From Escherichia phage vB_EcoM-689R6: DNA of 43,469 nt. Positions 31,058-31,954 of this stretch are shown piece by piece. Position 1 is the stretch's first letter, and every line of letters starts with the position of its first letter. The stretch lies in the sequence record ON470584, one strand, 5' to 3'. Both the position numbers and the translations under genes were made by a program. The notes under the pieces are model-generated. The model did no database searches and was not told where the DNA came from. It was given only the letters and a program-made list of their open reading frames with translations.

Positions 31058-31264
31058 ATGCACAAAACAGAACCCAAAATCGTCGCGCCTGGCTACACAG
31101 ATGAGGAAATTTATGAGTGGATGACAAAGAAGCTGGCAGCTATAAACCAGCTTCGTGAAGTGCTGTCTTATCGACAGGAAACAATAGACTCCTTAAAAAA
31201 ACTGGATCAGGAAATCACGGTTTTATCACAGGATGTTACTTTAGATATTGTGCAGACAAATTAG
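31058..31264 (+). CDS. Hypothetical small protein, first gene of the left operon
   Basis: 68 aa from ATG 31058 with GAGGAG 7 nt upstream; helical C-terminal half. The ORF track starts at a TTG at 31043. Confidence 0.4.
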   Translation: MHKTEPKIVAPGYTDEEIYEWMTKKLAAINQLREVLSYRQETIDSLKKLDQEITVLSQDVTLDIVQTN

Positions 31265-31670
31265 GATCCCATTCATTTTCGTCAAAATCATCAAAGTGAT
31301 GAATTTGTGATCTCCAGTCTCGATAATCTAAAAATTTCTGGGCGGTTACGCTTATTTTATCAAGTGTGAGTTCATCCTGAATTGAAAGAAGAAGTTCATC
31401 AAATTTCATCTCATTAATCTGTTTTGGCATCCAGTGATGCTTCATCAGAATAAGGTGAACCAGAGCCTTTTTCCCATTCAACTGATTATAGGGAGTGCCG
31501 AATTTCTTCCGGTGCTCATGTAAGACAAGGTCCAAAAGAGTAAGTAATGTTGCCCTTGATTCAACTTTGCTTATTTCGACTGATGACACTACCCCACTGA
31601 TTTCAATGCCCCGATACTTTCCAACATTTTCACAGTGGGATTTGTATAGCGTGTAGATATTACCGGACAT
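31236..31670 (-). CDS. Hypothetical protein (AT-rich cargo gene, antisense to the left operon)
   Basis: 144-aa ORF with AGGAAAAG Shine-Dalgarno-like sequence before the ATG; 3' end overlaps the 68-aa gene convergently by 29 nt. Confidence 0.5.
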   Translation of the reverse strand: MSGNIYTLYKSHCENVGKYRGIEISGVVSSVEISKVESRATLLTLLDLVLHEHRKKFGTPYNQLNGKKALVHLILMKHHWMPKQINEMKFDELLLSIQDELTLDKISVTAQKFLDYRDWRSQIHHFDDFDENEWDPNLSAQYLK

Positions 31671-31954
31671 TTCTTTTCCTTTTGCGTTGTTGGGGATAAC
31701 CAGATTAACCGAATCCTTGTTGTTGGGGAATAACCAGGTCCACCTCGCCTGATGTGGCTAAAAGCAGGCACATAACAGCTAAGTATTTTCAACCAGAGAG
31801 AATCCTTAGCGTTGTGGTGAATGCGGCTCAGCGTACGCGGGTTAAGGTTGAGGCTGACAGTCGACCTTCTGTGGATACCCACCCGCCTGGTGTGCAACCT
31901 TCGCCAGGCACCGGGAGGCACCCGGCACCACAACTTTATGCTGTGTGTAGTCCT

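What the first reader, a model, noticed from the sequence alone, without database searches (positions are those of the whole stretch)
31058..31760. AT-rich 144-aa gene antisense to the left operon, with direct repeats in its upstream region
The 144-aa ORF runs against the left operon and its 3' end overlaps the 68-aa gene convergently by 29 nt. Its upstream region contains two copies of TTGTTGGGGATAACCAG / TTGTTGGGGAATAACCAG (31686..31733) just before its ribosome-binding site. The placement next to the immunity region recalls rex-type exclusion genes, and the repeats suggest a dedicated regulator-binding site.
Basis: partly seen in the sequence, partly recalled or inferred. Interest (0 to 1): 0.5.

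Follow-up and report, generated by a model that had tools for sequence, protein, structure and literature searches.

The report
Prophage accessory gene in swappable slot
The 144-aa gene is a real but uncharacterised prophage accessory gene that travels with a small partner gene in a swappable cargo slot next to the immunity region, and the upstream repeats belong to the slot rather than to this gene.

Summary
A 144-aa ORF (31236-31670, minus) overlaps a 68-aa ORF (31058-31264, plus) by 29 nt. Two near-identical 17/18-mers lie upstream, at 31687-31703 and 31720-31737.

The gene is an ECs1072-family (NCBIfam NF033230, phrog_5286) phage protein. It has no Pfam or PADLOC match and no similar solved or viral fold. 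It is under purifying selection and sits in about 7.5% of complete E. coli genomes. Its Salmonella ST64B homologue, STMMW_20121, is published as transcribed from its own promoter during lysogeny, antisense to lytic genes. The small convergent partner is conserved with it in distant phages.

The repeats are not a regulator site dedicated to this gene. The same segment precedes at least ten unrelated cargo gene families in heteroimmune SfIV/e14-like prophages, and it does not resemble the predicted CI operators. The proximal repeat is one arm of an inverted repeat that brackets each cassette, and the arms change together between cassette types.

Best reading: a lysogeny-expressed moron cassette just downstream of PL, arranged with its partner as a convergent (excludon-type) pair. 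A phage-exclusion role is plausible but untested. The gene itself is ordinary. The slot architecture is the more interesting part.

The parts
30184..30810 (+). cI-type repressor (HTH_3 plus Peptidase_S24); defines the immunity region and the leftward direction
   Evidence: Pfam hits; ORF
30864..30892 (+). PL-like promoter (TTGCCA-17-TAGATT) overlapped by an operator-like palindrome, CTAAGTTAAGTTAG at 30876-30889
   Evidence: Promoter scan. The operator pattern is found only at OR (30099-30112, 30148-30161) and here; 0.08 matches expected by chance. The homologous SfV and e14 positions carry TTGACA-17-TAATGT.
30906..30969 (+). Leader conserved among heteroimmune relatives; homology with SfIV, SfV and PhiR29_1 starts here
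   Evidence: blastn boundaries; found in 103 of 110 related loci. Its fold is not significant (z -1.35).
30980..30999 (-). Terminator hairpin on the cargo strand (AAGCGTCCTGTAGGGCGCTT plus a T-run), shared by all cassette types in the slot
   Evidence: Terminator scan; conserved downstream of every cargo type
31011..31031 (.). Left arm of the cassette-bracketing inverted repeat (AATCTGGTCCCCATCAACAAG)
   Evidence: the repeat finder. It pairs with 31687-31706 (20 nt, 75%) and with 31716-31729 (13 of 14). Own-arm duplex energies lie 3 to 7.5 sd below shuffles in 17 cassette types.
31058..31264 (+). 68-aa partner gene (phrog_1744), co-directional with PL and convergent with the 144-aa gene
   Evidence: A homologous partner is present with divergent family members. 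hhalign gives probability 83.6%, E 8e-6. Intact in 39 of 41 loci, with weak constraint at short range (8 synonymous: 13 non-synonymous).
31129..31154 (-). Terminator-like hairpin about 80 nt after the stop of the 144-aa gene, inside the 68-aa ORF
31236..31670 (-). 144-aa ECs1072-family gene (NF033230, phrog_5286)
   Evidence: NCBIfam 157.8 bits against a cut-off of 70; phrog_5286 E 1.5e-90. 18 synonymous: 4 non-synonymous variant codons, intact in 41 of 41 loci. AlphaFold2 pLDDT 94, all-alpha.
31339..31354 (+). Weak terminator-like hairpin about 75 nt after the stop of the 68-aa gene, inside the 144-aa gene. With the hairpin at 31129-31154 it predicts transcripts that overlap by about 225 nt.
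   Evidence: prediction only
31687..31703 (.). Proximal direct repeat, which is the right arm of the inverted repeat; on the cargo strand it reads CTGGTTATCCCCAACAA and is followed directly by the ribosome-binding site
31720..31737 (.). Distal direct repeat (on the cargo strand CTGGTTATTCCCCAACAA), an alternative partner for the left arm
   Evidence: It is conserved upstream of all cargo types recovered with it.
31781..32004 (+). STnc100-like structured RNA element in the conserved right flank (context, not part of the cassette)
   Evidence: Rfam RF02076, 42.5 bits (gathering score 47), E 3.4e-7

Best explanation
The 144-aa ORF is a genuine gene of the uncharacterised, phage-associated ECs1072 family. 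With its 68-aa convergent partner it forms a two-gene cassette. The cassette occupies a hypervariable cargo slot that lies just downstream of PL and upstream of the STnc100-like element and yfdP, in SfIV/SfV/e14-like lambdoid prophages.

Shown here: the gene is conserved and under purifying selection. The slot carries many unrelated alternative cargos. The repeats belong to the slot. Each cassette is bracketed by complementary arms.

Inferred: in the lysogen PL is repressed and the 144-aa gene is transcribed from its own promoter. This has been measured only for the ST64B homologue. On induction, PL transcription expresses the 68-aa gene and reads antisense through the 144-aa gene. The convergent, 3'-overlapping pair then behaves as an excludon that switches the 144-aa gene off.

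More speculative: the protein benefits the lysogen, most plausibly by excluding or aborting other phages, and the small partner modulates or neutralises it.

The direct repeats are two copies of the 5' arm of a long-range inverted repeat. That repeat either pairs the ends of a transcript across the cassette or marks the joints where cassettes are exchanged.

The confidence of 0.6 is for the whole package. The structural claims (real gene, family, slot, repeats not gene-specific) are about 0.85-0.9. Lysogenic expression with shut-off by PL is about 0.55. A phage-exclusion role is about 0.35.
For: Family and selection:
- NF033230, 157.8 bits against a cut-off of 70.
- phrog_5286 over the full length.
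- 76 clusters at 50% identity, all about 145-155 aa.
- 18 synonymous against 4 non-synonymous variant codons, and 41 of 41 intact.
- 410 of 5426 complete E. coli genomes carry the cassette.

Slot:
- Flank homology stops at 30969 or 31017 on the left and starts at 31686 or 31740 on the right in SfV and PhiR29_1.
- 110 IMG/VR loci with the distal repeat carry at least 10 unrelated cargo families directly after the proximal repeat.
- All are followed by the same terminator and leader.

PL position.

Expression:
- ST64B STMMW_20121 matches the ST64B family member in length (435 nt), position beside the holin and 71-nt overlap with sb50.
- It reads 60-270 TPM in almost all lysogenic conditions, has its own transcription start and is antisense to lytic genes (PMC7067206).
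- ECs1072 itself is detected on Sakai arrays.
- In the same slot of e14, the PL-proximal ymfJ is induced late in SOS (log2 change 4-4.8), far more than the antisense ymfI (PMC11002266).
- ymfI-ymfJ is listed as a convergent excludon (PMC12288877).

Partner:
- Present in L035, L213, Serratia, ST64B and Klebsiella loci.
- hhalign E 8e-6.

Inverted repeat. At least three arm classes each pair preferentially with arms of their own class.
Against: - No promoter for the 144-aa gene was found by consensus scan in the window. Expression evidence comes only from a homologue that is about 32% identical over the alignable 92 residues and sits in another slot (between Q and the holin).
- In ST64B the small partner is also expressed in lysogeny (22-258 TPM) and has its own promoter-like site. 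A strict lysogeny/lytic alternation is therefore not general.
- No cargo of the slot, including this one, matches a known defence system, so the exclusion role rests on position only.
- One family member (L212) lacks the partner.
- The small ORF shows little purifying selection at short range.
- SfV-type and e14-type cassettes in the same slot have neither the repeats nor bracketing arms, so the arms are not essential to the slot.
Confidence: 0.6

Rival explanations
1. One reading: a rex-like exclusion gene whose upstream direct repeats are the binding site of a dedicated regulator (CI or another protein) that controls this gene.
For: The gene sits beside the immunity region. Two 17/18-nt repeats lie 33 nt apart just upstream of the ribosome-binding site. 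BstA, a defence gene downstream of cI, has a functional DNA element with terminal direct repeats spanning its start (PMC8585504).
Against: The repeats precede at least 10 unrelated cargos and occur in heteroimmune phages. They do not resemble the operator-like palindromes at OR and OL. The proximal copy is replaced by unrelated sequence that is still complementary to the cassette's 3' arm in some cassette types; a protein site would not behave this way. No Rex homology was found.
Confidence: 0.08
2. The repeats and arms are purely DNA-level features: short shared sequences at which recombination swaps cassettes (mosaic joints), with no role in RNA.
For: Mosaic boundaries fall exactly at the repeats. 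PhiR29_1 homology starts at 31686, SfV homology at 31740, and L010-type cassettes diverge after the distal copy. The conserved flank parts AATCTGG and CCAGATT are themselves inverted copies. Transition-type mismatches in the arms give no usable strand signal.
Against: Arms that differ completely from the common type (GGATGACT/AGTCATCC, GTAACCCTC/GAGGGTTAC) are still complementary to each other. Recombination joints alone do not predict this. Inverted orientation is not what simple homologous exchange needs. The 3' arm always lies inside the transcribed part, between stop codon and terminator.
Confidence: 0.35
3. The 144-aa and 68-aa pair is a toxin-antitoxin-like addiction or stabilisation module rather than a phage-exclusion function. 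The overlapping convergent transcripts provide the RNA-level control seen in type I systems.
For: It is a conserved two-gene module of small proteins with overlapping 3' ends. Both genes are expressed in ST64B lysogens. Each predicted terminator lies inside the other gene.
Against: There is no homology to any toxin or antitoxin family. The partner is missing in L212 and disrupted in a few loci without loss of the large gene. Convergent protein-protein pairs are not a described TA type (own knowledge).
Confidence: 0.15
4. The protein is a regulator of the prophage's own lysis-lysogeny decision or induction (an extra immunity-region regulator), not a host-benefit gene.
For: It lies beside the immunity region here and beside Q in other phages, both regulatory nodes. 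Owen et al. leave open 'accessory or regulatory' for STMMW_20121. It is a small all-alpha protein.
Against: It is dispensable: closely related phages carry unrelated genes in its place. No recognisable DNA-binding domain was found.
Confidence: 0.12

Closest known systems
NCBIfam NF033230 'ECs1072 family phage-associated protein' / phrog_5286; best-studied member ST64B STMMW_20121 (Owen et al. 2020, PMC7067206)
   Same: Full-length match above the curated cut-off. Same size, antisense placement within a lytic operon, and a convergent small partner that overlaps the 3' end.
   Different: The ST64B, Klebsiella and Serratia members sit between Q and the holin, not downstream of PL. Their partner is longer (about 85 aa), the overlap is 71-95 nt, and the partner has its own promoter-like site. 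No member has a known function.
BstA-aba of prophage BTP1 (Owen et al. 2021, PMC8585504)
   Same: A lysogeny-expressed gene just downstream of the cI locus of a lambdoid or P22-like prophage, with a linked element that could spare the phage itself, and direct repeats in the region around the gene start.
   Different: There is no sequence or domain similarity. aba is specific to its BstA, whereas these repeats are shared by unrelated cargos. Any self-immunity component here would be the 68-aa protein or antisense transcription, and that is untested.
Lambda rexA-rexB
   Same: Accessory genes adjacent to the repressor in a lambdoid prophage; candidate exclusion role.
   Different: rexAB are co-transcribed with cI upstream of PL (own knowledge). 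This gene is downstream of PL and antisense, has no Rex homology and no membrane component.
e14 ymfI-ymfJ of E. coli K-12 (same slot); the excludon concept (ExcludonFinder, PMC12288877)
   Same: Same PL, leader and right flank. A PL-co-directional gene converges on and overlaps an antisense gene. The pair is listed as a convergent excludon, and the PL-proximal gene is SOS-late induced.
   Different: The proteins are unrelated. The e14 cassette lacks the direct repeats and the bracketing arms.
[quoted passage not shown] 2022, PMC9122126)
   Same: A fixed position in a temperate phage where unrelated accessory cassettes replace one another between conserved flanks.
   Different: The P2/P4 hotspots hold many recognised defence systems. 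Here no cargo matches a known system. The co-varying inverted arms are not, to my knowledge, a described feature of those hotspots.

Membership tests
ECs1072 family (NCBIfam NF033230 / phrog_5286) | Full-length HMM match above the curated cut-off (70 bits) | tested here: met
   157.8 bits, residues 4-144 on profile positions 2-142; phrog_5286 E 1.5e-90 over 1-144
Moron (Juhala/Hendrix sense) | Present in some genomes and absent or replaced in close relatives with conserved flanks | tested here: met
Moron (Juhala/Hendrix sense) | Own terminator | tested here: met
   Predicted hairpins with T-runs on the minus strand at 31154..31129 and 30999..30980. Prediction only.
Moron (Juhala/Hendrix sense) | Own promoter, and expression from the repressed prophage | tested here: inconclusive
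   No sigma-70 consensus site upstream on the minus strand. An own transcription start and lysogenic expression are shown only for the ST64B homologue.
Moron (Juhala/Hendrix sense) | Base composition different from its surroundings | tested here: met
   GC 0.35-0.42 against 0.45-0.59
Excludon (convergent type) | Neighbouring convergent genes whose transcripts overlap | tested here: met
   The ORFs overlap by 29 nt. Each predicted terminator lies inside the partner gene, giving a predicted overlap of about 225 nt. The transcripts themselves were not observed.
Excludon (convergent type) | Mutually exclusive expression through interference or RNase III | not testable with these tools
   Needs strand-specific RNA-seq with and without induction, and an rnc mutant
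Lambda Rex exclusion system | RexA/RexB homology | tested here: not met
   No Pfam family matched at E <= 0.1 and no PADLOC model matched
Lambda Rex exclusion system | Co-transcription with cI, between cI and OL/PL | tested here: not met
   PL/OL lies at 30864-30892, between cI and the cassette, and the gene is on the opposite strand
BstA-type defence | BstA protein homology | tested here: not met
   No Pfam or PADLOC hit; the protein is only 144 aa and all-alpha
Known anti-phage defence systems (PADLOC-DB v2) | Match to any model | tested here: not met
   0 families for the 144-aa and 68-aa proteins
CI operator | Repeats resemble the operators at OR and OL of this phage | tested here: not met
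   The operator-like pattern CTAAG-N4-STTAG occurs only at 30099, 30148 and 30876. The repeats are shared by heteroimmune phages.

The most novel reading that the evidence does not exclude
SfIV/e14-like lambdoid prophages, present in roughly a fifth of complete E. coli genomes, carry a cargo slot just downstream of PL. In it, unrelated antisense cassettes are each enclosed by a co-varying 13-22-bp long-range inverted repeat, with a second copy of the 5' arm upstream. The arms pair in RNA across the whole 0.5-0.9 kb cassette. The pairing could join the 5' and 3' UTRs of the cargo mRNA, or loop the cassette out of the PL transcript. Either way it would act as a generic insulation, processing or stability device (for example an RNase III site) that lets any cargo be plugged in. 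The ECs1072-family protein and its partner would then be a new two-component exclusion system with built-in self-immunity.
Probability: 0.25. Interest if true: 0.7.

Novelty: new member of a known kind. Interest (0 to 1): 0.45.

Why it matters
The gene itself is one more copy of a catalogued but unstudied prophage family. The useful results are three.

First, it links that family to published transcriptomic evidence of lysogenic expression, and it shows that the family travels with a conserved convergent partner.

Second, it defines a cargo slot found in about 19% of complete E. coli genomes. The slot holds at least ten orphan gene families, which makes it a ready list of candidates for exclusion or defence screens.

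Third, it shows that the cassettes are bracketed by co-varying inverted arms. That points to a testable RNA-level or recombination mechanism for plugging accessory genes into an essential early operon.

Tried and rejected
1. Function by homology or fold. None of these gave anything:
- Pfam on the protein and on all 48 family members.
- PADLOC.
- A PDB sequence-profile search.
- Foldseek against BFVD: best E 0.66.
- The afdb50 library was unavailable.

2. 'STnc100 is a put-like antiterminator RNA.' This was a lead from memory. The STnc100 model does not hit the HK022 PL/PR region, so I dropped it.

3. The conserved PL leader as a structured RNA. The fold is not significant (z -1.35) and Rfam gives no hit.

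4. A promoter for the 144-aa gene. The consensus scan found none on the minus strand, and reading the conserved upstream region by eye gave only poor hexamers.

5. Deciding which RNA strand carries the arm pairing from G-U against A-C asymmetry. Counts were 22 to 7 in favour of the PL-sense strand. I reject this as evidence, because the constant arm is C/A-rich and any transition in the variable arm falls in that class. The transition-to-transversion ratio is about 2:1, as expected for neutral change.

6. Bracketing arms around family members in the Q-holin slot. Only weak, AT-rich pairs were found, so there is no support.

7. Bracketing arms in SfV and e14 cassettes. They are absent.

8. Guilt by association. 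No other cargo of the slot matches a known defence gene. The only matches are sub-threshold hints: a 2TM effector at E 0.01 and LprI at E 0.006.

9. 'The ORF is spurious.' Rejected on selection and deep conservation.

10. A target-site-duplication (transposon) model for the arms. It fits the common arm type but fails for the L010-type arms, which are inverted and not direct.

Full report
OBSERVATION

The window around the finding is the immunity and early-left region of a lambdoid prophage. Its gene order is:
- a Cro-like gene at 29886-30086 (minus strand);
- an intergenic operator region;
- a cI-type repressor at 30184-30810 (plus strand; HTH_3 and Peptidase_S24);
- further right on the plus strand, YfdP-like, YfdQ (DUF2303) and HD-hydrolase genes, then xis and int.

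The 144-aa ORF (31236..31670, minus) and the 68-aa ORF (31058..31264, plus) converge and overlap by 29 nt. Both have good Shine-Dalgarno sequences. The two repeats are at 31687-31703 and 31720-31737. They occur nowhere else in the window, and none of 100 shuffles gave a match. The cassette has GC 0.35-0.42, against 0.52-0.59 immediately to its right.

WHERE PL IS

A sigma-70-like site (TTGCCA-17-TAGATT, 30864-30892, plus) lies just after cI. It is overlapped by a palindrome of the type CTAAG-N4-STTAG. That palindrome otherwise occurs only twice, between cI and cro, with 0.08 matches expected by chance. I read these as the operators OL and OR.

Homology with heteroimmune relatives begins at 30906, just downstream of this site. 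At the same relative position SfV and e14 have a consensus TTGACA-17-TAATGT.

The cassette therefore lies downstream of PL. The 68-aa gene is the first gene of the leftward transcript, and the 144-aa gene is antisense to that transcript. This differs from lambda rexAB, which sit in the cI transcription unit (own knowledge).

THE GENE

The 144-aa protein matches NCBIfam NF033230, 'ECs1072 family phage-associated protein', with 157.8 bits against a cut-off of 70. It also matches phrog_5286 over its full length. It has no Pfam or PADLOC match.

The exact cassette is in phages SfIV, Kati, vB_EcoS-569R4 and VIT_AJPSC and in 410 of 5426 complete E. coli genomes. It is rare on plasmids. Among 41 loci with this cassette the gene is always intact and shows 18 synonymous against 4 non-synonymous variant codons. 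It is a real gene of unknown biochemical function.

PUBLISHED EXPRESSION EVIDENCE FOR THE FAMILY

Salmonella phage ST64B encodes a family member (167.5 bits) that is unannotated in the phage record. It lies between the holin and sb50, antisense to both, and overlaps sb50 by 71 nt.

Its length (435 nt), its neighbours and the 71-nt overlap identify it as STMMW_20121 of strain D23580. Owen et al. (PMC7067206) report that this gene is transcribed in almost all conditions from its own promoter, antisense to lytic genes, and they list it as a candidate accessory gene. Their table gives 60-270 TPM in nearly all conditions (one reads 4.9), while the adjacent holin reads 0.3-33 TPM.

This is the only direct evidence on expression. 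It concerns a homologue about 32% identical over the alignable 92 residues, in a different slot.

THE PARTNER

Family members in ST64B, Klebsiella phages and a Serratia prophage all have a small convergent ORF that overlaps their 3' end. So do all but about five of 80 further IMG/VR loci. A divergent family member in the same slot as the window (L035) also has a partner, MKATEPKIIAPSSTEEEV..., which is 36% identical to the window's 68-aa protein. An E. albertii relative has one too.

Profile-profile comparison joins the two partner types (probability 83.6%, E 8e-6, 58 columns). In every context the small gene runs with the surrounding lytic operon and the large gene runs against it.

There are exceptions and caveats:
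- One family member (L212) has no partner.
- The window-type small ORF shows little purifying selection at short range (8:13).
- In ST64B the partner is also expressed in lysogeny and has its own promoter-like site.

THE REPEATS BELONG TO THE SLOT, NOT TO THE GENE

PhiR29_1 shares the flanks 30906-31017 and 31686 onward but carries a different minus-strand gene. SfV shares 30906-30969 and 31740 onward. About 640 more E. coli genomes carry the repeat segment without the 144-aa gene, with other minus-strand genes next to it.

A scan of IMG/VR for the distal repeat gave 110 usable loci. In these, the sequence right after the proximal repeat encodes one of at least ten unrelated families:
- ECs1072 proteins of two divergent types;
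- coiled-coil plus zinc-ribbon proteins;
- a proline-rich ORF followed by a two-transmembrane protein;
- signal-peptide proteins;
- a 167-aa protein;
- small membrane proteins.

None of these matches a known defence system. These phages have different cI genes. A regulator site dedicated to the 144-aa gene, or a CI site, is therefore not tenable.

AN INVERTED REPEAT BRACKETS EACH CASSETTE

In the window the sequence at 31011-31031 is complementary to both direct repeats: 75% over 20 nt with the proximal copy, and 13 of 14 with the distal copy.

In all cassette types the last 15-25 nt before the shared CCAGATTGTTAAAGAGC-terminator flank are complementary to the proximal repeat region. Own-arm duplex energies are -14 to -26 kcal/mol. 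Shuffles give -5 to -10, so the own arms lie 3 to 7.5 sd below them.

Some cassette types have quite different arms that still match each other and not the common type:
- AATCTGGATGACT / AGTCATCCAGATT;
- GTAACCCTC / GAGGGTTAC;
- a CTTG / CTAAG variant.

A family member in another prophage (L212) has the same kind of arms. This is co-variation, so complementarity itself appears to be maintained.

I could not decide whether it acts in RNA or only in DNA. The wobble-pair asymmetry is confounded by arm composition. SfV-type and e14-type cassettes in the same slot lack both repeats and arms.

HOW IT MOST LIKELY WORKS

Shown: a conserved two-gene cassette sits in a replaceable slot downstream of PL. 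The large gene is antisense, and each gene has a terminator-like hairpin inside the other gene.

Inferred: in the lysogen PL is off and the 144-aa gene is transcribed. On induction PL drives the 68-aa gene and reads antisense through the 144-aa gene, silencing it. Two observations support this. The equivalent pair in the same slot of e14, ymfJ/ymfI, is listed as a convergent excludon. Its PL-proximal member is induced late in the SOS response, far more than the antisense member.

Speculative: the large protein excludes or aborts other phages, and the small protein tempers it. The concept is that of BstA with its self-immunity element, but nothing here tests it.

COMPARISON AND NOVELTY

The gene is a new copy of a catalogued, uncharacterised family, placed like a classical moron. 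It is not Rex and not BstA (see the membership tests). What I have not seen described is the slot itself, with its shared repeat segment, co-varying bracketing arms and set of orphan cargos. That is a lead, not a demonstrated mechanism.

VERDICT

The cassette architecture around it is moderately interesting.

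Noticed in passing
window 31781-32004 (+): Match to Rfam STnc100 (RF02076), a prophage sRNA family: 42.5 bits, just under the gathering score of 47, E 3.4e-7. It lies in the conserved right flank, between the cassette and the yfdP-like gene. A 2026 preprint relates STnc100 to PasD sRNAs. The published ORFs SfIV_34 and SfIV_35, and the window ORFs 31589..31933 and 31821..32501 upstream of Met 32139, overlap it and are probably over-calls.
   Followed up: partly
window 30906-30969 (+): A 64-nt leader immediately downstream of PL is conserved (88-100% identity) in 103 of 110 related loci, whatever their immunity type or cargo. 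Its ends (AACGAA...TTCGTT) can pair, but the fold is not significant (z -1.35) and Rfam has nothing.
   Followed up: partly
L007 (ST64B) 3683-3692; also the Klebsiella and Serratia loci: In the longer-overlap family members, the palindrome TGGGATCCCA encodes W-D-P on both strands...DWDPRE... in the large protein and ...FPWDPSP... in the partner. This tryptophan is the only invariant residue in the 48-sequence family alignment. In the window the small ORF stops (TAG 31262-31264) right before GGATCC.
   Followed up: partly
L002 (SfV, U82619) about 2890-3053, minus strand; L007 (ST64B, AY055382) 3281-3715: Public phage records miss the antisense cargo genes. SfV has an unannotated minus-strand ORF starting at about 3053 with the same AAAAGGAAAA ribosome-binding context. 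ST64B does not annotate its ECs1072-family gene.
   Followed up: partly
L215 (E. coli K-12 e14) 5498-6085: ymfI and ymfJ of e14 occupy the same slot (same PL, leader and right flank) in the same geometry: the PL-co-directional gene converges on the antisense gene, with a 63-nt overlap. The proteins are unrelated, and there are no repeats.
   Followed up: partly
L011, L014, L026, L063, L131 (IMG/VR loci), cargo strand: One frequent alternative cargo is a short proline-rich ORF followed by a 150-172-aa protein with two predicted transmembrane helices. It gives sub-threshold PADLOC hits to '2TM effector' models (E about 0.01), so it is a candidate abortive-infection effector.
   Followed up: no
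L213 (E. albertii) 699-1327: The large protein is only 72% identical to the window's, yet the first 53 residues of the partner differ at a single residue, after which a frameshift changes the C-terminus. This suggests recombination inside the cassette.
   Followed up: no
window 31740-31758: A small hairpin (CCAC-N10-GTGG) sits between the distal repeat and the STnc100-like element. It is kept with different stem and loop sequence in SfV and e14 (CACCAC-N10-GTGGTG).
   Followed up: no
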